Assembly: GCA_030587605.2 (NCBI GenBank)
Contig: JAUQYT020000065.1
Coordinates: 1,604-33,603, forward strand
Direction: 5' to 3'
Length of the DNA stretch: 32,000 nucleotides
Source: Candidatus Njordarchaeum guaymasense
Lineage (GTDB): Archaea > Asgardarchaeota > Njordarchaeia > Njordarchaeales > Njordarchaeaceae
Part shown: piece by piece, positions 2,932 to 21,472 of the stretch
Position numbering within the stretch: position 1 is the first letter of the stretch
Layout: every line of letters starts with the position of its first letter
Program-made: the position numbers and the translations under genes
The notes under the pieces: generated by a model
Seen by the model: only the letters and a program-made list of their open reading frames with translations
Told to the model about the DNA's origin: nothing
Databases searched by the model: none

Positions 2932-3724
2932 AAATATTTCTGTGAGAGATATTCAAAGACGATATACATATATTGACAAAGATGAACTTATCCCAAAAGC
3001 GTTTTGGACCTTAGAGAGTTCAAAGGATACACATTTAGTAGTAGTAGAGAACAAAATTCCTGTAGGTATTATCTCATATAAGGATTTCCTAAGAGTTTTA
3101 ACTAATAAGGCTAGACGGGGACTAATCACCAAACTTCATGTTTCAAGTTTAATGACAATAAATTTAGTAACAGTAGAGCCAGATACTTCTATTCAAGATG
3201 CTGCAAAATTGATGATCAAAAAGGGAATTTCTAGTGTTCTTGTCGAATCCGGAGGAAAAATCGTAGGTATTATTACTAAAAGGGATTTATTAAAGCATAT
3301 TGAAATTTTACCCGATGTTCTTCTTAAAACATTCATGACAAAGAATCCTATTGCTGCTCCAGCAGGGATGTCTTTAACAGGTGCTGAGAAACTTTTACGT
3401 GATAGGAAAATAAGTACCCTCCCTGTAGTCGAAGAAGGAAATGTTATCGGCTACGTCGATATACGAATTCTTGCTCAGTTCCTCTTAGATGCTTTCTTGA
3501 ACCAACAACATAAGCATATCAATAAGTTTATTCATGAGGTAACACTTGGTGACATTATGAAACGTCCATCATATATGCTCCCAGATGATAAAATTCATAC
3601 CTTCGCTAAAGAAATTTTAAGACGCAGTTTTAAGGGTGCACCTATTGTCTCATCATATAGTACTAGAAATCTACTTGGTGTTGCGACAGAAACTGATGTT
3701 ACTAAGTTGATTGCCTCGATTTGA
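2915..3724 (+). CDS. CBS-domain protein (two CBS pairs)
   Basis: Repeated CBS-type motifs: VPVGIISYKDFLRV, GISSVLVESGGKIVGIITKRDLL, ISTLPVVEEGNVIGYVDIRIL, GAPIVSS..LLGVATETDV. Overlaps the NFACT stop. Confidence 0.8.
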   Translation: MMILNKNISVRDIQRRYTYIDKDELIPKAFWTLESSKDTHLVVVENKIPVGIISYKDFLRVLTNKARRGLITKLHVSSLMTINLVTVEPDTSIQDAAKLMIKKGISSVLVESGGKIVGIITKRDLLKHIEILPDVLLKTFMTKNPIAAPAGMSLTGAEKLLRDRKISTLPVVEEGNVIGYVDIRILAQFLLDAFLNQQHKHINKFIHEVTLGDIMKRPSYMLPDDKIHTFAKEILRRSFKGAPIVSSYSTRNLLGVATETDVTKLIASI

Positions 3725-3734
3725 GGATGATCTT

Positions 3735-4757
3735 ATGGATAATTATTATCGATTATTTGAGGAATTCCAAGAATTTGATCAGTACATACAAGGAATTAAA
3801 CCAATTAGATCTGGAAATTCCCTCGATTTACATCGATGGGAAGGTTTTATATCCGTAGGCGCGTATAAAATCAAGGTTCGGATTTTAATCCCCGAAGAAT
3901 ATCCTTATGAACCACCAGAAATATACATATTAAACAAAAAATTATGGAATTCTCCTATGCTTGGTATTGATAAAAGGGGTAAAATCGACATTAGTAGATT
4001 TATTTCATGGTCCGCAGAAATAAAACTTTGGCAAATAGTTCAAAATCTTATTATATATTTGAATAAAAAAAGAGTTGATGATTTATTATCCGAAGTCAAA
4101 CAACAATCAGAAACATTTTTCAGTTCCTTGAAGGAGATTATTTCTAACCCTCAAAAAATTGAAAAAATCAGAAAGAAACTAGAATCTTTCAAACCTGAGA
4201 TGTTTTTAGATAAAATGCGTTCCAAAGAGACACTAATTCAATCTCTTCTAGAAATCTTACAGCAGTATTCAGAAAATAAGGGTCAATCTCTTACACCGGA
4301 GCAAGTGTTTGTAATAATCTTAAAGAAAATTTTAGGAAAAGAGGATAGCTTGGAATCCAAGACCGAAAAAGACGAAGTTTCCAGAGCTCTACTTGCTTAC
4401 GTTGGCTCAAATGCCGTATTACTTACAAAAGCATTGGACGAACTTATTGATATGCTAGAAATAGGCCAATCTACTAGTAGAGTTTCTTGGGTAATTAAGC
4501 TTATTACGGATATAGATTTCAGACTTGGAGCACTTCCCATTGGAAGCGAGTATAGAACGAAATTTAGAAATATGCTCAGAAGATGGAAAAAAAAGCTTAA
4601 CTCTTATAAAGGTGACTTTCTAAAAGAACAGGACATAAATGAGCTTTTAAAGGACATTAAATGGATCGACTCTAGAATCAGATTGATTCTCGAAGGTACT
4701 CTTAGAAAAAATATTCATAAACGAGATGAGAAGACGATAAAAAATTCTTTGGATTGA
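3735..4757 (+). CDS. UEV / inactive E2-variant (UBC-fold) domain protein with a long alpha-helical C-terminal region
   Basis: The N-terminal ~110 aa follow the UBC fold pattern: HRWEGFISVGAYKIKVRILIPEEYPYEPPEIYI...GIDKRGKIDIS..ISWSAEIKLWQIVQNLIIYL. The E2 HPN motif and catalytic Cys are absent (KIDIS where E2s have ICL). ATG 3735 is preceded by GAGG; the ORF is open from TTG 3711. Confidence 0.6.
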   Translation: MDNYYRLFEEFQEFDQYIQGIKPIRSGNSLDLHRWEGFISVGAYKIKVRILIPEEYPYEPPEIYILNKKLWNSPMLGIDKRGKIDISRFISWSAEIKLWQIVQNLIIYLNKKRVDDLLSEVKQQSETFFSSLKEIISNPQKIEKIRKKLESFKPEMFLDKMRSKETLIQSLLEILQQYSENKGQSLTPEQVFVIILKKILGKEDSLESKTEKDEVSRALLAYVGSNAVLLTKALDELIDMLEIGQSTSRVSWVIKLITDIDFRLGALPIGSEYRTKFRNMLRRWKKKLNSYKGDFLKEQDINELLKDIKWIDSRIRLILEGTLRKNIHKRDEKTIKNSLD

Positions 4758-5001: not shown

Positions 5002-5098
5002 TGGTGGGCCCGGGCGGATTCGAACCGCCGACCTCTCGGTTTCTGATTCTAGCTACGAATATCAGCCGAGCGCTCTAGCCTAGCTGAGCTACGGGCCC
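5002..5098 (-). tRNA. tRNA-Ile (anticodon GAU) with a 19-nt intron at the canonical 37/38 position (plus-strand 5041-5059); 3' CCA genomically encoded
   Basis: The reverse complement reads GGGCCCG TA GCTC AGCTAGGCTA GAGC G CTCGG CTGATA[TTCGTAGCTAGAATCAGAA]A CCGAG AGGTC GGCGG TTCGAAT CCGCC CGGGCCC A CCA. Intron segment AUCAG pairs with the anticodon-loop CUGAU. Confidence 0.9.
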
Positions 5099-7257: not shown

Positions 7258-7863
7258 TTATATATTACGTCCAAGAGTTGCCATTTCTTTTCGATAAACT
7301 TCTGGGAAAACACGGTATAGCATAGCAAGCCTAGCTGCTTCCTGAAAAACTCTTTTAACGCCTAAGCCATCCTTAGCTACTGTTTTGAACACGGGGAACG
7401 TTCCCTCTATATTAAGTGCTCGTAAAAGAACCCGCTCGGGTAACGCATCATCTAGATCTCTTTTGTTTAGTGCTATTATAACAGGCATTCTTATAAAGTG
7501 ATCCCCAAGAAAATCTTTTAGTTCATTTATACTGTAGATGTTTTCCTGTAATGCATTAGGATCACTATCTACAACAAAAATGACAGCATCTGCTCCCTGG
7601 AGTATAACTTTCCTTTGATGCTTATGCCTTCTCTGCCCAGGAACCGTATAAATGTCAAAAACCACCTTGCCACGTGTACCCAGAGGCATATAATCGAAAT
7701 AGAGAGTTCTTCCACTGGGATCTTCTATGGATCTTATTTTACCTTTTTTTAAGCCGAAGATTCTATTGTATAACGCTTTAACCATTGTAGTTTTTCCGCC
7801 AAGAGATGGACCATATAAAACTATTTTGAATCTATAGTAGCCATTTTTGTCTCGATAGACCAT
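7258..7863 (-). CDS. MglA-like small GTPase (Ras superfamily)
   Basis: P-loop GPSLGGKTT, G3 motif TVPGQ (the MglA-type variant of DxxGQ), NKRD specificity motif. 201 aa. Confidence 0.8.
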   Translation of the reverse strand: MVYRDKNGYYRFKIVLYGPSLGGKTTMVKALYNRIFGLKKGKIRSIEDPSGRTLYFDYMPLGTRGKVVFDIYTVPGQRRHKHQRKVILQGADAVIFVVDSDPNALQENIYSINELKDFLGDHFIRMPVIIALNKRDLDDALPERVLLRALNIEGTFPVFKTVAKDGLGVKRVFQEAARLAMLYRVFPEVYRKEMATLGRNI

Positions 7864-8029: not shown

Positions 8030-8833
8030 TTATACAATCCTTGGAGCAAGTAGATAAGATAACTCGACGCCACCACCGATCATAAATGTAAGCTTTAGAG
8101 GCATATTCTTAGAATACTCTAATCGAACCATTTCAGAAACTCTCGAAGCACGCATGAATTTCTTCAGAAAATCTATTGAGTATAAGGATTCCGCATCATT
8201 TTTAACATTAAATTCGACAATAGTTTCTTCGCGATCTAGAGGCGCGAGATATTCATAAAAACCTCCGGTATCGCTTTCTACTACAAATTTAAGTTCCTTT
8301 TTTGATGCATTTGTGATTATTCTTAAATCTTCTCCAATTACGCTTGCATCGGAGATTATTTCCCCTAATGCTGATGCTGGAGCAAATTCTATAGAAACAT
8401 CATATTGTAATTCTTTGATGGGAATTTTCTCCTCGGGGATCTCTATTAATGGTAATGCAAAAGATCTTTGCAGACTTCTTTCTTCTAGGGTTCCCCGATA
8501 GAAAGTAACTGTAAAAAAGAATCTATCTCTCTCTTTTTTAAGCGAAAATATTACGCTATCTTTCGATTTTGCTCTTTGTATGATCTTCTTAAGTTCAGAA
8601 AAATTAATACCCATAACAATAGTCTCTTTTCCATCAGGGGGTTCAAAATCGTACTTCTGAAAGAGTGTTGCGGGCATATTCAATATAACCATTGCAACTC
8701 TTGATTCATCCATAGCCATAAACTCAAGCCCAGCTTCTCTTGCATAGAAATTTCCCTCATCTACAATATTTGAAATTGCAATTATAATTTCTTTTGCAAC
8801 TTTAGCATCGTCATACGCTGCTAACCATTCCAT
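8030..8833 (-). CDS. pcn: DNA polymerase sliding clamp PCNA
   Basis: 267 aa with the two-domain PCNA pattern: ...ISNIVDEGNFYAREAGLEFMAMDESRVAMV...PLKLTF.....LSYLLAPRI. Confidence 0.9.
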   Translation of the reverse strand: MEWLAAYDDAKVAKEIIIAISNIVDEGNFYAREAGLEFMAMDESRVAMVILNMPATLFQKYDFEPPDGKETIVMGINFSELKKIIQRAKSKDSVIFSLKKERDRFFFTVTFYRGTLEERSLQRSFALPLIEIPEEKIPIKELQYDVSIEFAPASALGEIISDASVIGEDLRIITNASKKELKFVVESDTGGFYEYLAPLDREETIVEFNVKNDAESLYSIDFLKKFMRASRVSEMVRLEYSKNMPLKLTFMIGGGVELSYLLAPRIV

Positions 8834-9243
8834 TTTAAATCACCATTTTTAATATTCAGACACTTTCTTTCTAACTTTATCAATAATTTATAAATATCTG
8901 GATTAAAAGATTCTATTATTCTAAGAATATGTGCATGTATTATAATGTTCCCATCAGAGAATATCTTAACACTTCCCCAAAAATCAACAAAAGACCCTAC
9001 TAAGCTATTTGAATTCTTTAAAGTGTTATAATGTGAAGAGCTCAGAACAACTACAAATCGTACTCCACGATCTTCACCTTTAAAAGGATCCTCTAAGGTT
9101 AGAAGGTTCCTTTCTATAGAGGCTATTTTTCCAATTAACCTTACTCTTAATGTTATTTCTTTTCTCTCATCTCTAAGTGAAGAAATTAATTGTACAAACT
9201 CGTCGAATAATAATTCTCTATAGGAAATATCCGATCGACTCAT
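8821..9243 (-). CDS. small OB-fold protein (RPA3/Ten1-like candidate). Its stop overlaps the PCNA start by 13 nt.
   Basis: 140 aa. LRVRLIGKIASIERNLLTLED...VGSFVDFWGSVKIFSDGNIIIHAHIL resembles the small single-OB subunits of RPA/CST. The assignment rests on pattern only. Confidence 0.4.
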   Translation of the reverse strand: MSRSDISYRELLFDEFVQLISSLRDERKEITLRVRLIGKIASIERNLLTLEDPFKGEDRGVRFVVVLSSSHYNTLKNSNSLVGSFVDFWGSVKIFSDGNIIIHAHILRIIESFNPDIYKLLIKLERKCLNIKNGDLKWNG

Positions 9244-9404: not shown

Positions 9405-9491
9405 TCTTATATCTCTAAAAGATAATAAGGAAAAAACCACTATTTAGCCATCATTAACAATTAGTTAGTAAATATAATCTCAAAAGAAAAG

Positions 9492-9500
9492 TTTAAAATA
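9492..9500 (+). promoter_or_regulatory. TATA box (TTTAAAATA) with a purine-rich BRE-like stretch upstream; promoter of the permuted 5S rRNA gene
   Basis: Matches the archaeal TTTAWATA-type consensus. Its centre is about 30 nt upstream of the first base of the flanking helix at 9526. Confidence 0.55.
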
Positions 9501-9525
9501 CTTTTACTACTAATCGAATGACTAG

Positions 9526-9676
9526 TGCCCCTGGGCCGGAAGCTAAGCTCCTCCACGGAGTTCCGAGTACCGTAGTGGGCGACTCTACGGGAAAGGGCTC
9601 TGCTGCCTCCTTCGGGAGGCGGCCATAGGGAGGAGGCTACGCCCGAACCCATTCCGAACTCGGAAACCCAGGGGCA
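9526..9676 (+). rRNA. circularly permuted 5S rRNA gene with flanking bulge-helix-bulge processing helix; the predicted mature (circular) part is 9542-9665, 124 nt
   Basis: - 9615-9665 is the 5S 5' third (GGAGGCGGCCAUAGGGAGGAGGCUACGCCCGAACCCAUUCCGAACUCGGAA).
- It lies downstream of 9542-9610, the 5S 3' two-thirds (GCUAAGCUCCUCC...GAGUACCGUAG...CUACGGGAAAGGGCUCUGCUGCCUCC).
- Helix I is capped by UUCG (9611-9614).
- Helices II, III, IV and V and loop E can all be drawn.
- The flanks 9526-9535 and 9667-9676 are perfectly complementary. Confidence 0.85.
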
Positions 9677-9751
9677 TCTACTTGAGTTCTACTTATAGTA
9701 TTTTCATAGAGTTTTAATTTATAATTTCTTGATCTTCTTAAAGAAATCATC

Positions 9752-15910: not shown

Positions 15911-16525
15911 ATGGCACAAGAAAACATCTCAGATAGAAATCTAAGAAAAATTCGTGTGAAAATTGTCCTTGTTGGCGATGGCGGCGTTGGAAAGACGTCA
16001 ATTGCTAGGCGTTATCTGGGAGAGGCCTTTAGAGGTGAATACAAGAAGACTATTGGAGCAGAATTTTACGTAAAGAAAAACATATATCATGATGATGAAC
16101 TTGGAGATATCCAGATTGAGTGGTTAATATGGGATCTTGCAGGCCAACCAACTTTTGATCAAGTTCGCCCACTATACTACAGAGGCGCAAAAGCTTCTTT
16201 GGTAGTATTTGATATTACTAGACCAGAAACATACTATAATGTTCCAAAGTGGATAAATGAATTCTGGAAGCATAGTGGTGGTGTATTTCCATTCGTTCTG
16301 GTCGGAAATAAAGTGGATCTAAGAGATGCTTTCGCCGATTCCGCTGTTCCTTCGAGAGTTGGTTTTGAGTATGCCCGAGTTACAAGCAAATATGTTGGTG
16401 TTCAGATCCCCTATATTGAAACTTCAGCTAAAACAGGTGAAAATATAGAGCAGGCCTTTGACTTTCTTGCGAGGGTTATAATAGAGTATTCAAAGGTTAG
16501 GTTGCGTAAAGTAACTCAAAAATAA
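15911..16525 (+). CDS. Rab/Ras-like small GTPase
   Basis: G1 GDGGVGKTS, switch I YKKTIGAEF, G3 WDLAGQ followed by YYRGA, G4 GNKVDL, G5 ETSAKTG. No C-terminal Cys prenylation motif. Confidence 0.88.
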   Translation: MAQENISDRNLRKIRVKIVLVGDGGVGKTSIARRYLGEAFRGEYKKTIGAEFYVKKNIYHDDELGDIQIEWLIWDLAGQPTFDQVRPLYYRGAKASLVVFDITRPETYYNVPKWINEFWKHSGGVFPFVLVGNKVDLRDAFADSAVPSRVGFEYARVTSKYVGVQIPYIETSAKTGENIEQAFDFLARVIIEYSKVRLRKVTQK

Positions 16526-20734: not shown

Positions 20735-21472
20735 ATGTCCAGTGAGCAATATATTAAATGCCCTTCTTGTGGATCTAAAGTTCTTATTGGATACAAAATT
20801 TGCCCCTATTGTGGTTTTGACTTACGTCCATTGATAAGAAGGAAAGCCAGTGCTGAATTAACTTTTCGAGATATTATTAGAAGAATCGAATATGTATCGA
20901 TAAAGCCTAGTTCTGTTTTTAGGGAGATCATTCTAGCACCGGAATACAGTGGGCCTTTCCTTATCGTGATTGCTGGTGCTCTATTATTAGCTCTGAGATT
21001 TCTTATAGTGTTGCTTTCCGCCATTCCTAATATCCAACTAGATCTTATGTCAGGACTAGCTATTTTTTTAATCGCGTTTATATCATCGAGTTTGATGTTT
21101 ATATTTATATGGTATTTACTTTCTCTACTGTTGCATGCTATAATTCGCTTAATTGGCGGAATTGGTAGTTTTTCTTTAACTCTCGTTATCGTGGGGTATT
21201 CATTAACGCCACTAATCCTTGGTTTCTTTATATCAAATAATCTTCTATTTTTCGTTCCAAACCTTACAGGAACCTCGCTAATCGACTACTTGGATGTAGC
21301 TCTAAATAGCTCACCTGTTGTCATTTCAAGTTATATATTTACAGGAATGCTTCTATGGTTTGGATATCTTCTCTCGTTGGGGTTTTCTTATGCCCACGGT
21401 ATAAATAAGATTGCATCAACAATTCTCGCATTCAGTACTGTAGGTGCATTATTGCTAATTTTTAATTTCTAA
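20735..21472 (+). CDS. membrane protein with an N-terminal zinc ribbon and a Yip1-like multi-pass domain
   Basis: CPSCGSKVLIGYKICPYCG zinc ribbon, then KPSSVFREII and about 5 hydrophobic helices, as in Yip1-domain proteins. Family call by pattern only. Confidence 0.5.
   Translation: MSSEQYIKCPSCGSKVLIGYKICPYCGFDLRPLIRRKASAELTFRDIIRRIEYVSIKPSSVFREIILAPEYSGPFLIVIAGALLLALRFLIVLLSAIPNIQLDLMSGLAIFLIAFISSSLMFIFIWYLLSLLLHAIIRLIGGIGSFSLTLVIVGYSLTPLILGFFISNNLLFFVPNLTGTSLIDYLDVALNSSPVVISSYIFTGMLLWFGYLLSLGFSYAHGINKIASTILAFSTVGALLLIFNF

What the first reader, a model, noticed from the sequence alone, without database searches (positions are those of the whole stretch)
9526..9676. Circularly permuted 5S rRNA gene flanked by a bulge-helix-bulge motif: predicted covalently circular 5S rRNA
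**Seen directly (+ strand)**
- The only 5S-like sequence in the window is encoded in rotated order.
- 9542-9610 is GCUAAGCUCCUCCACGGAGUUCCGAGUACCGUAGUGGGCGACUCUACGGGAAAGGGCUCUGCUGCCUCC. It carries the helix II 3' strand, helix V, the loop E GAGUAC/GGGAAA, helix IV (CCGUAG 9570-9575 with CUACGG 9585-9590) and the helix I 3' strand.
- 9615-9665 is GGAGGCGGCCAUAGGGAGGAGGCUACGCCCGAACCCAUUCCGAACUCGGAA. It carries the helix I 5' strand, helix II (GGAGGAG 9629-9635, pairing with CUCCUCC 9548-9554) and the helix III/loop C hallmark CCCGAACCCAUUCCGAACUCGG.
- In every normal 5S gene the second block comes first.
- The natural 5' and 3' ends are joined by a UUCG tetraloop (9611-9614) that caps a 9-bp helix I (9602-9610 with 9615-9623).

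**The new termini form a processing motif**
- They sit in a perfect 10-bp helix: UGCCCCUGGG 9526-9535 with CCCAGGGGCA 9667-9676.
- Next come a 3-nt bulge AAA (9664-9666), a 4-bp helix CCGG 9536-9539 with UCGG 9660-9663 (one G.U pair), and a 3-nt bulge AAG (9540-9542).
- This is the bulge-helix-bulge geometry cut by the archaeal splicing endonuclease.
- Cutting after the second bulge nucleotide on each strand and ligating A9665 to G9542 gives ...CCGAACUCGGAA-GCUAAGC..., exactly the canonical 5S sequence at that point.
- The product is a 124-nt circle.
- The 3' cut context GAA|ACC matches the 3' splice site of the tRNA-Ile intron 4.5 kb upstream.

**Context from established knowledge**
- BHB cleavage plus RtcB-type ligation circularises tRNA introns and pre-16S/23S intermediates in archaea.
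- Permuted tRNA genes (Cyanidioschyzon, Thermofilum) and a permuted SRP RNA gene (Thermoproteus) are repaired this way.
- I am not aware of this arrangement for an archaeal 5S rRNA gene.

**Inference**
- The mature 5S here is either a covalently closed circle or a permuted molecule.
- Collinear 5S search models would under-score or miss the gene.
Basis: partly seen in the sequence, partly recalled or inferred. Interest (0 to 1): 0.93.

Follow-up and report, generated by a model that had tools for sequence, protein, structure and literature searches.

The report
Rotated 5S rRNA gene in Njordarchaeales
An order of heat-loving Asgard archaea encodes its 5S ribosomal RNA back-to-front inside a tRNA-intron-like splicing signal, so the RNA must be cut out and most likely sealed into a ring, which has not been reported for 5S rRNA.

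Summary
Window 9542-9665 (+) is a full 5S rRNA encoded as 3' half, UUCG loop, 5' half.

- **Identification.** Rfam's collinear 5S model gives only 14.6 and 18.5 bits. A model built from ordinary bacterial 5S genes, rotated in silico at GGAA|G, hits exactly 9542-9665 full-length (62.5 bits, E=1e-13).
- **Real sequence.** The locus is identical in six independent metagenome assemblies.
- **Conserved.** Seven further Njordarchaeales sequences carry the same architecture (PCNA 61-72% identical, 5S 72-95%). All five 5S helices covary.
- **Flanking helix.** It is 11-16 bp, 100% paired, with compensatory changes in 8 of 10 scored pairs. It always abuts an invariant leader CCGG-AA and lies exactly 3 nt after GG-AA at the 3' end. 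This is the 3-4-3 bulge-helix-bulge geometry of the tRNA-Ile intron in the same window.

Excision by the splicing endonuclease is very likely, and ligation into a 124-nt circle (120-134 nt across all nine loci) is likely. Neither step is shown.

The 4-bp central helix is invariant, so covariation cannot test it. Its fourth pair is G.U or G.A, and there is no inner helix. I could not check for a collinear 5S copy elsewhere in the genome. I found no published precedent. I rate it a new variant of the known permuted-gene/BHB repair scheme.

The parts
9492..9500 (+). Candidate archaeal TATA box TTTAAAATA. A purine-rich BRE-like stretch lies just upstream (9482-9491). It sits 34 nt before the flanking helix, so the transcript would start about 9520-9525.
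   Evidence: Read from the sequence. All seven relatives have TTTAWAAA 41-49 nt upstream of their flanking helix. Promoter function is inferred, not tested.
9526..9535 (+). 5' strand of the outer (leader/trailer) helix of the BHB, UGCCCCUGGG. It can be extended by G9525.U9677.
   Evidence: In the 8-species alignment this helix is 100% paired, and 8 of 10 pairs carry changes on both sides. It is 11-16 contiguous bp in every species.
9536..9539 (+). 5' strand of the 4-bp central BHB helix, CCGG. It belongs to the leader and is not part of the 5S.
   Evidence: It pairs with UCGG 9660-9663 (C-G, C-G, G-C, G.U). It is invariant in 8 species while the adjacent outer helix varies freely. It is therefore untestable by covariation, and RNAalifold prefers an alternative pairing.
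9540..9542 (+). 5' bulge AAG. The predicted endonuclease cut lies between A9541 and G9542.
   Evidence: The geometry matches the tRNA-Ile intron (cut after the second bulge nucleotide). The rotated-5S model match starts exactly at 9542.
9542..9610 (+). 3' portion of the 5S rRNA: helix II 3' strand, helix V, loop E, helix IV, helix I 3' strand.
   Evidence: Rfam fragment covering model 66-120. Rotated model R1. Helices II, IV and V covary.
9611..9614 (+). UUCG tetraloop joining the natural 3' and 5' ends of the 5S and capping helix I.
   Evidence: Relatives have a closed helix I of 9-13 bp with UUCG, GUAA or other 3-5 nt loops.
9615..9665 (+). 5' portion of the 5S rRNA: helix I 5' strand, loop A, helix II 5' strand, helix III and loop C, ending in the conserved AA bulge.
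   Evidence: Rfam fragment covering model 28-51 at 9642-9665. The R1 match ends exactly at 9665. Helix III shows a U-A to A-U double change.
9660..9663 (+). UCGG with a dual role. It is the 3' strand of the central BHB helix in the precursor and the 3' strand of the lower part of helix III in the mature 5S.
   Evidence: The two pairings are mutually exclusive.
9664..9666 (+). 3' bulge AAA. The predicted cut lies between A9665 and A9666.
   Evidence: Same context as the tRNA-Ile 3' splice site, GAA|ACC. The third bulge nucleotide, which lies outside the 5S, varies (A or U) among species, while the two retained A's are invariant.
9667..9676 (+). 3' strand of the outer helix, CCCAGGGGCA.
9701..9704 (+). 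T-run (TATTTTC), a possible archaeal termination signal for the 5S precursor.
   Evidence: Read from the sequence. Several relatives have T4-T6 runs within 1-25 nt of the helix. This is inferred.
5005..5098 (-). tRNA-Ile(GAU) with a 19-nt intron at position 37/38. It serves as an internal reference for the BHB style and cut register of this organism, and it implies that the organism has a splicing endonuclease and ligase.
   Evidence: Layout: CUCGG-CUGA-UA|U...UCAG-AA|A-CCGAG.

Best explanation
Window 9526-9676 is the functional 5S rRNA gene of a Njordarchaeia (Asgard) archaeon, encoded in circularly permuted order.

1. It is transcribed from its own promoter as a precursor of about 180 nt.
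2. Leader and trailer pair into an 11-16 bp helix.
3. Next to that helix, the leader sequence CCGG-AA pairs with, and mimics, the (U/A)CGG-AA that ends the 5S. This gives two 3-nt bulges on opposite strands, separated by 4 bp.
4. The tRNA-splicing endonuclease cuts after the second nucleotide of each bulge (9541|9542 and 9665|9666). The 124-nt 5S is released exactly like an intron.
5. The RtcB-type ligase joins A9665 to G9542. This recreates the universal CGGAA-GCUAAGC sequence at the AA bulge of helix III and yields a covalently closed 5S.
6. Once the leader is gone, UCGG re-pairs inside helix III.

**Shown:** 5S identity, permuted order, conservation, covariation and BHB-compatible geometry. 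**Inferred:** cleavage by EndA, ligation, and that the circle, rather than a re-opened form, is what sits in the ribosome.
For: **Identity and order**
- The model built from rotated bacterial 5S genes hits 9542-9665 full-length at 62.5 bits, and the seven relatives at 54-66 bits.
- The collinear Rfam model gives only 14.6 and 18.5 bits and nothing at gathering threshold.

**Real and functional**
- The locus is identical in six independent assemblies.
- Seven other Njordarchaeales sequences share the architecture in a conserved neighbourhood of L11, L7Ae, UPF0147, an Arf-like GTPase and PCNA.
- 94.5% of cells pair in helices I-V, and 16 pairs carry double changes.
- Each locus has a TATA box.

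**Processing motif**
- The outer helix is 100% paired, and 8 of 10 pairs covary. RNAalifold finds it independently.
- Its position relative to CCGG and GGAA never shifts, although its sequence differs in every species.
- The leader CCGGAA is invariant although it is not part of the 5S.
- Geometry and cut register are identical to the tRNA-Ile intron in the same window, which also lacks an inner helix.

**Precedent for the chemistry**
- The permuted SRP RNA of Thermoproteus is cut at a BHB by the splicing endonuclease and functions as a circle (PMC4731332).
- Circular 23S rRNA has been reported inside archaeal ribosomes (PMC12918454).

**Against re-opening.** Helix I is closed by tight loops, UUCG in five sequences and GUAA in one.
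Against: - No RNA data were available. Cleavage, ligation and the mature form are all untested.
- Three pairs of the central helix are invariant, and the fourth is G.U (2 species) or G.A (6 species). Covariation therefore says nothing about it.
- Both RNAfold and RNAalifold prefer another pairing for the leader CGG. The BHB conformer lies 3.7-8.4 kcal/mol above the MFE at 37 C and 1.5-3.2 at 80 C.
- No inner helix h' is present.
- EndA and RtcB are not in the window. Their presence is inferred only from the intron-containing tRNA.
- A collinear 5S elsewhere in the genome could not be excluded. Only about 170 kb of Njordarchaeia-related sequence was searched.
- One divergent permuted 5S (L145) has no recognisable BHB. 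A linear permuted 5S may therefore be viable.
Confidence: 0.72

Rival explanations
1. The circle is only an intermediate. After BHB excision and ligation it is re-opened in or near the helix I loop, giving a conventional linear 5S with normal ends. [quoted passage not shown]
For: - Most known archaeal rRNA circles are intermediates that are re-linearised (PMC12918454 background; PMC10515664).
- The loops of two relatives are A/U-rich (UUAAAG, UUUAU). In Methanococcus, A/U-rich motifs are 5S end-processing sites.
- Helix I length varies from 9 to 13 bp, so its tip is unconstrained.
Against: - Five of nine sequences cap helix I directly with UUCG and one with GUAA. This looks like a structural cap, not a spacer with processing signals.
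- No conserved motif occurs in or near the loop.
- The permuted Thermoproteus SRP RNA stays circular, and circular 23S rRNA occurs in mature ribosomes.
Confidence: 0.15
2. The RNA is cut at the BHB, or by other nucleases acting on the processing stem, but is never ligated. The mature 5S would then be a linear, permuted molecule with a nick at the AA bulge of helix III.
For: - Linear permuted 5S rRNAs exist in brown-algal mitochondria (PMC4267664).
- The divergent locus L145/L165 has the same break point but no BHB outer helix. A U6 run follows immediately after GGAAAUCUCC, which is compatible with a primary transcript that is simply a linear permuted 5S.
Against: - Every studied RNA excised at an archaeal BHB (tRNA introns, pre-rRNAs, SRP RNA) is ligated into a circle.
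- The ends would be held together by helix III, which makes them an ideal ligase substrate.
- The strict 3-4-3 geometry conserved across species points to the splicing endonuclease, whose products (2',3'-cyclic phosphate and 5'-OH) are the substrates of RtcB. This last point is established knowledge and was not tested here.
Confidence: 0.1
3. The locus is a rearranged 5S pseudogene or an assembly artefact, and the working 5S is a normal collinear gene elsewhere in the genome.
Against: - The sequence is identical in six independent assemblies.
- It is conserved in at least seven further species in syntenic position, with compensatory changes in every 5S helix and in the flanking helix.
- The universal loop C, loop E and loop A motifs are intact.
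- Each locus has its own TATA box.
Confidence: 0.02

Closest known systems
Permuted SRP RNA gene of Thermoproteus tenax (Plagens et al. 2015, eLife, PMC4731332)
   Same: - A universal structured RNA is encoded with its 3' part before its 5' part.
- The new termini lie in a motif cut by the tRNA-splicing endonuclease.
- The termini are ligated, and the circle is the functional form.
- The host is a hyperthermophile.
   Different: - The RNA here is 5S rRNA, a ribosome component, not SRP RNA.
- The lineage is Asgard (Njordarchaeales), not Thermoproteales.
- The arrangement is conserved across a whole clade with covarying flanks.
- The central BHB helix is built from a leader copy of the 5S's own helix III strand.
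- No RNA evidence exists yet.
Permuted tRNA genes of Cyanidioschyzon merolae and Thermofilum pendens (Soma et al. 2007; Chan et al. 2011). Recalled from memory; cited second-hand in PMC4267664 and PMC10085705.
   Same: - The 3' half is encoded before the 5' half.
- A BHB lies at the new termini.
- The natural ends are joined by a short linker.
- A circular RNA is formed.
   Different: In tRNAs the circle is an intermediate, and the linker is removed to restore normal ends. Here the linker is a tight tetraloop that looks permanent.
[quoted passage not shown]
   Same: The same enzymes (EndA and RtcB) and the same processing-stem logic apply. These cases are precedents for circular or permuted rRNA inside functional ribosomes.
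   Different: Those genes are collinear, and circularisation joins the natural ends. Here the gene itself is permuted, so ligation is needed to restore the continuity of helix III. The literature explicitly excludes 5S from this pathway.
Permuted mitochondrial 5S rRNA of brown algae (Valach et al. 2014, PMC4267664; Rfam mtPerm-5S)
   Same: It is a 5S rRNA whose termini are not at the end of helix I.
   Different: There helix I is replaced by a terminal hairpin, the ends lie at the three-way junction, and the RNA is linear with no BHB or ligation. Here the break lies at the AA bulge of helix III, helix I is intact and capped, and a BHB flanks the gene.
Minor circular 5S species in Sulfolobus and Halobacterium (Danan et al. 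2012, as cited in PMC12558985)
   Same: These are circular RNA molecules containing 5S sequence in archaea.
   Different: They arise from collinear genes, have heterogeneous junctions, and are thought to be linked to degradation. No permuted gene or BHB is involved.

Membership tests
5S rRNA (Rfam RF00001) | Three-way junction with helices I-V supported by base pairing and covariation | tested here: met
   In the rotated topology 94.5% of cells pair, 16 of 39 pairs have double changes, and 0 of 500 shuffles reach this. RNAalifold recovers helices I, II, IV and V independently.
5S rRNA (Rfam RF00001) | Conserved loop A (CCAUAG), loop C (CCCAUUCCGAAC) and loop E (AGUAC / GGGAA) sequences | tested here: met
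   All are present and invariant or nearly invariant in 8 species.
5S rRNA (Rfam RF00001) | Scores at or above the 38-bit gathering threshold of the collinear model | tested here: not met
   14.6 and 18.5 bits, as two fragments in swapped order. No hit at gathering threshold in the window or in L132, L143 and L151. The shortfall is explained entirely by the permutation.
5S rRNA (Rfam RF00001) | Full-length match once gene order is corrected | tested here: met
   Model R1, built from 14 bacterial collinear 5S genes rotated at GGAA|G, gives 62.5 bits and E=1e-13 over 9542-9665, covering model positions 1-121 of 121. Ordinary 5S genes reach only 17-38 bits per half with R1.
Bulge-helix-bulge substrates of the archaeal splicing endonuclease | Two 3-nt bulges on opposite strands separated by a 4-bp helix | tested here: inconclusive
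   The geometry is exact in all 8 species. However, three pairs are invariant, the fourth is G.U or G.A, and folding programs prefer another pairing.
Bulge-helix-bulge substrates of the archaeal splicing endonuclease | Outer helix h adjoining the motif | tested here: met
   It is 11-16 bp and 100% paired, and 8 of 10 scored pairs carry compensatory changes.
Bulge-helix-bulge substrates of the archaeal splicing endonuclease | Inner helix h' (strict hBHBh' form) | tested here: not met
   C9543 faces C9659, so no inner helix forms. The tRNA-Ile intron of the same window also lacks a clear h', so this organism's enzyme evidently accepts the relaxed form.
Bulge-helix-bulge substrates of the archaeal splicing endonuclease | Actual cleavage by EndA at the predicted phosphates | not testable with these tools
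   This needs an enzyme assay or RNA end mapping.
Permuted RNA genes repaired by circularisation (SRP RNA, tRNA) | 3' part encoded upstream of the 5' part, with the natural ends joined by a short linker | tested here: met
   The linker is a 3-5 nt loop in all species.
Permuted RNA genes repaired by circularisation (SRP RNA, tRNA) | Cut-and-join at the new termini restores the canonical sequence without gain or loss of nucleotides | tested here: met
   Joining 9665 to 9542 gives CCGAACUCGGAA-GCUAAGC. Relatives give CCGAACACGGAA-GCUAAGC, identical to collinear 5S genes apart from the variable C/U after the junction G (GUUAAGC there).
Permuted RNA genes repaired by circularisation (SRP RNA, tRNA) | Detection of the circular RNA | not testable with these tools
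   No transcriptome data can be searched here.
Brown-algal mitochondrial permuted 5S (mtPerm-5S) | Helix I replaced by a terminal hairpin, with the termini at the junction of the alpha and gamma domains | tested here: not met
   Helix I is intact and capped, and the termini lie at the AA bulge of helix III. No mtPerm-5S hit appeared in the E-value-mode Rfam search.

The most novel reading that the evidence does not exclude
All ribosomes of an Asgard order (Njordarchaeales) carry a covalently closed, end-less 5S rRNA as the mature form, and it is produced obligatorily by the tRNA-splicing machinery from a permuted gene.

The permutation may have arisen from a tandem 5S duplication. The two copies of the near-palindromic helix III segment NCGG-AA can pair with each other and so create a BHB spontaneously. 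A second Asgard-like lineage (L145) carries the same break point, which suggests the trait is older or more widespread than this one order.
Probability: 0.5. Interest if true: 0.9.

Novelty: new variant of a known kind. Interest (0 to 1): 0.85.

Why it matters
- **A new case for 5S.** 5S rRNA is the one rRNA thought never to pass through the archaeal cut-and-circularise pathway, and its gene order is treated as universal outside organelles. Here a whole clade of Asgard archaea, the group central to the origin of eukaryotes, appears to depend on the tRNA-splicing endonuclease and ligase to make 5S at all. The product is probably a circular ribosomal RNA.
- **Annotation.** Standard collinear models miss the gene (Rfam at gathering threshold). 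Pipelines that rely on such models would report the 5S as missing, and a genome-quality check that requires a 5S would fail. Permutation-aware searches should recover it, here and perhaps in other lineages.
- **Mechanism.** It is a natural case of a mutually exclusive precursor/mature pairing. A leader decoy for helix III could order 5S folding and ribosome assembly.
- **Testability.** The prediction needs only one junction sequence searched in existing hydrothermal metatranscriptomes.

Tried and rejected
- **Genome scan wasted.** I scanned genome contigs with AGTACN{65,95}CCATNCCGAAC, which was far too loose. I therefore could not obtain the species distribution across GTDB or test for a collinear copy.
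- **Direct Rfam scoring of the rotated sequence.** I replaced it with a model of in-silico-rotated bacterial 5S genes.
- **More distant Njordarchaeia loci.** I reached these through PCNA homologues at 46-55% identity (L160-L164) and 53-59% identity (L172-L175). L160-L164 hold no 5S of either kind near PCNA. L172-L175 are only 1.4-1.7 kb and were not searched. The phylogenetic boundary of the trait stays open.
- **Neighbour protein 8821-9243.** It has no detectable homologues beyond its own species.
- **L145/L165.** I looked for a BHB or a leader/trailer helix and found none. Only leader GGGUUUCUG pairs with CGGAAAUCU. Neighbours are ORFans in Pfam, with only a marginal PHROG hit. Homologue contigs L167-L171 carry no 5S. 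A viral-contig scan found nothing.
- **Literature.** Searches for a permuted or circular archaeal 5S gene found only brown-algal mitochondrial permuted 5S and minor circular 5S by-products. The Njordarchaeota and Panguiarchaeum papers do not discuss 5S.
- **Pseudogene or artefact reading.** Rejected on conservation and covariation.
Full report
**1. The observation**

- Rfam at gathering threshold finds no 5S anywhere in the 32-kb window. It finds only tRNA-Arg(CCU) and an intron-containing tRNA-Ile(GAU).
- With permissive thresholds the collinear 5S model returns two sub-threshold fragments in swapped order. Model positions 28-51 (helix III and loop C) fall at 9642-9665 (18.5 bits). Model positions 66-120 fall inside 9535-9611 (14.6 bits). 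The family threshold is 38 bits.
- The segment is a G+C island, 0.52-0.59 against 0.25-0.35 around it. It folds better than shuffled controls (z = -3.8).

**2. Formal test of the rotation**

The tools cannot score an arbitrary sequence against Rfam, so I inverted the test.
- I collected 24 distinct ordinary collinear bacterial 5S genes found in passing.
- I cut each at ...CGGAA|G..., joined the natural ends with UUCG, and aligned 14 of them.
- I built covariance model R1 from that alignment. No Njordarchaeales sequence went into it.

R1 matches the window once only, at 9542-9665, across all 121 model positions (62.5 bits, E = 1e-13). Ordinary 5S genes match R1 only as halves of 17-38 bits. A bacterial tandem 5S pair matches across its junction at 115 bits. 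The identification as a complete, circularly permuted 5S is therefore secure.

**3. Not an artefact, and not a pseudogene**

The neighbouring POR-gamma protein occurs on seven contigs from JGI, ENA and Logan assemblies. The six that were retrieved carry a 5S locus identical base for base.

A specific pattern, GGAAGYTAAGCN{85,115}CCATNCCGAAC, cannot match a single collinear gene. Scanning JGI metagenomes with it returned 33 stretches.
- Sixteen are bacterial tandem 5S pairs.
- Eight are chance matches in coding sequence.
- Nine are permuted 5S genes: L132, L134, L135, L139 (=L143), L140, L144, L151 and the divergent L145.

Proteins on these contigs are labelled Candidatus Njordarchaeales or Njordarchaeia in NCBI records. 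The loci share a neighbourhood of L11, L7Ae, UPF0147, an Arf-like GTPase and PCNA. They are well diverged: PCNA is 61-72% identical, L7Ae 68-87%, and the 5S itself 72-95%.

**4. Covariation** (8-sequence alignment A2)
- In the mature 5S structure 94.5% of cells pair, and 16 of 39 pairs change on both sides. No shuffle out of 500 reaches this, and slid controls fall to 41-55% paired.
- Helix III shows a clean U-A to A-U swap between this species and the others.
- In the precursor structure the outer helix (columns 7-16 with 158-167) is 100% paired, and 8 of 10 pairs carry compensatory changes.
- RNAalifold, given no structure, finds the same outer helix together with helices I, II, IV and V.
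- The outer helix is 11-16 contiguous bp in every species. It always starts directly 5' of the leader CCGG and exactly three nucleotides after the 3' GG-AA.
- The six leader nucleotides CCGGAA are invariant although they are not part of the 5S, while the adjacent helix differs in every species.
- Each locus has a TTTAWAAA box 34-49 nt upstream of the helix.

**5. The processing motif**

On the 5' strand the order is outer helix, CCGG, AAG. On the 3' strand it is UCGG, AAA, outer helix. That gives two 3-nt bulges on opposite strands separated by 4 bp.

The tRNA-Ile intron in this window has the same layout: CUCGG-CUGA-UA|U ... UCAG-AA|A-CCGAG. To leave a 7-nt anticodon loop, both of its cuts must fall after the second bulge nucleotide.

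Applying the same rule to the 5S gives cuts at 9541|9542 and 9665|9666. The released 124-nt piece has ends that join to CUCGGAA-GCUAAGC. In relatives the junction is CACGGAA-GCUAAGC; collinear 5S genes read CACGGAA-GUUAAGC, identical apart from the variable C/U after the junction G. The circles are 120-134 nt across the nine loci.

The tRNA-Ile intron also lacks a convincing inner helix. This organism's enzyme therefore already handles the relaxed form.

The join falls at the conserved AA bulge of helix III. The 3' strand of the central helix (UCGG) is also the 3' strand of lower helix III. The BHB conformer and the mature fold are thus mutually exclusive, and the leader CCGG acts as a temporary decoy.

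**6. What is not shown**
- Three pairs of the central helix never vary, and the fourth is G.U (2 species) or G.A (6 species). Covariation cannot confirm it.
- Thermodynamic predictions prefer pairing the leader CGG with the CCG of helix III.
- The BHB conformer costs 3.7-8.4 kcal/mol at 37 C and 1.5-3.2 at 80 C. That is plausible for a protein-captured motif, but it is not proof.
- EndA and RtcB are not in the window. Their presence is inferred from the tRNA intron.
- There are no RNA data.
- I could not scan whole genomes for a collinear copy, because I wasted the single genome scan on a loose pattern. No collinear 5S occurs in the roughly 170 kb of Njordarchaeia-related sequence I held.

**7. 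Mature form**

Helix I is a closed hairpin of 9-13 bp. It is capped by UUCG in five sequences and GUAA in one, and by 3-5 nt loops in the rest. This looks like a permanent cap, not a spacer to be removed.
- I favour a mature circle (about 0.55-0.6 overall).
- Re-opening at the loop comes next (about 0.15).
- A nicked, unligated linear form follows (about 0.1).
- Engineered E. coli 5S with closed natural ends is reported to be tolerated (Huang et al. 2020). I recall this from memory and did not verify it here.

**8. Origin (inference)**

NCGG-AA occurs as a direct repeat at both ends of the gene, and CCGG is a palindrome. In a tandem 5S dimer with a short spacer, the two copies of this segment can pair with each other and give a proto-BHB. 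The short spacer would become the helix I loop. Such dimers exist: L127 has a 7-nt spacer, and 15 other loci are similar.

**9. Comparison with what is known**
- The mechanism matches the permuted SRP RNA of Thermoproteus, which is cut at a BHB by the splicing endonuclease and functions as a circle (PMC4731332). It also matches permuted tRNA genes.
- It differs from the brown-algal mitochondrial 'permuted' 5S, which is linear, has helix I replaced, and has no BHB (PMC4267664).
- It differs from the minor circular 5S species that arise from collinear genes (PMC12558985).
- A 2023 survey of natural RNA permutations lists only the mitochondrial case for 5S (PMC10085705).
- A 2026 paper on circular archaeal rRNA states that the pathway applies to 16S and 23S 'but not 5S rRNAs' (PMC12918454).
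- I found nothing about 5S in the Njordarchaeia literature.

**10. Verdict**

The finding extends from one locus to a conserved trait of Njordarchaeales. It is a new variant of a known kind of system. Interest is 0.85.

Noticed in passing
L145 5712-5831 (+), the same locus as L165 4581-4700 (-): A second, divergent permuted 5S (40.7 bits with R1, 120 nt, G+C 0.48, 63-68% identical to the Njordarchaeales ones). It has the same break point (CUGGAA|GCUAAGC ... ACGGAA|A) and a UUCG-capped 6-7 bp helix I. It has no leader/trailer BHB helix. Instead, leader GGGUUUCUG can pair with CGGAAAUCU, and a U6 run follows at once. Its neighbours are ORFans. A 1421-aa neighbour has 33-50% homologues, one labelled Candidatus Helarchaeota and one next to ribosomal protein L38e, so the host is probably another Asgard lineage. 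How this RNA is processed is unexplained.
   Followed up: partly
window 5005-5098 (-): tRNA-Ile(GAU) has a 19-nt intron at 37/38. Its BHB has a perfect central helix (CUGA/UCAG) but no evident inner helix. This suggests the organism's splicing endonuclease accepts relaxed motifs.
   Followed up: partly
window 9537-9541 and 9661-9665: A 5-nt direct repeat, CGGAA, brackets the permuted gene. The permutation boundary is ambiguous within this repeat. The pattern fits an origin by tandem duplication.
   Followed up: partly
L127 5902-6142 (-); also L129, L131, L133, L136-L138, L141, L146, L147, L149, L150, L152, L153, L156, L158: Bacterial contigs, several from human-gut metagenome assemblies, carry two 5S genes in tandem. 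The spacer is 7 nt in L127, and the match lengths suggest roughly 3-13 nt in the others. A rotated 5S model reads across the junction at 115 bits. This is the kind of intermediate from which a permuted gene could evolve.
   Followed up: partly
window 3711-4757 (+), 7258-7863 (-), 15911-16525 (+), 20735-21472 (+): The window contains eukaryote-like signature proteins typical of Asgard archaea: a UEV/E2-like ubiquitin-conjugating domain protein, an Arf-like small GTPase, a Ras-family GTPase and a Yip1-domain membrane protein.
   Followed up: no
window 8821-9243 (-): A 140-aa ORF overlaps the start of the PCNA gene and lies next to the 5S promoter region. It has only a weak, sub-threshold hit to the Ten1/CST OB-fold, and no homologue outside its own species in a 5.8-billion-protein search. 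ORFs of similar size (122-141 aa) sit in the same position in distant relatives (L160, L162, L163).
   Followed up: partly
L167 1-7923 (-): A contig that carries an NCBI protein labelled Candidatus Helarchaeota encodes an ORF of more than 9000 aa with no Pfam match on record. Next to it are PDDEXK and RNase H-like genes. It comes from the same JGI sample (3300033156) as one of the Njordarchaeia contigs.
   Followed up: no
L143 11561-11699 (-): A 139-nt tRNA match in a Njordarchaeales contig implies one long intron or several introns. Intron-rich tRNAs would fit heavy use of the BHB machinery in this lineage.
   Followed up: no
L132 5011-5160 compared with window 9538-9690: The closest relative differs from the window 5S locus at three positions: loop E GAGUAC to AAGUAC, helix V GGGCUC to GGACUC, and outer helix CCCAGG to CUCAGG (G-C becomes G.U). 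The last two keep pairing.
   Followed up: yes
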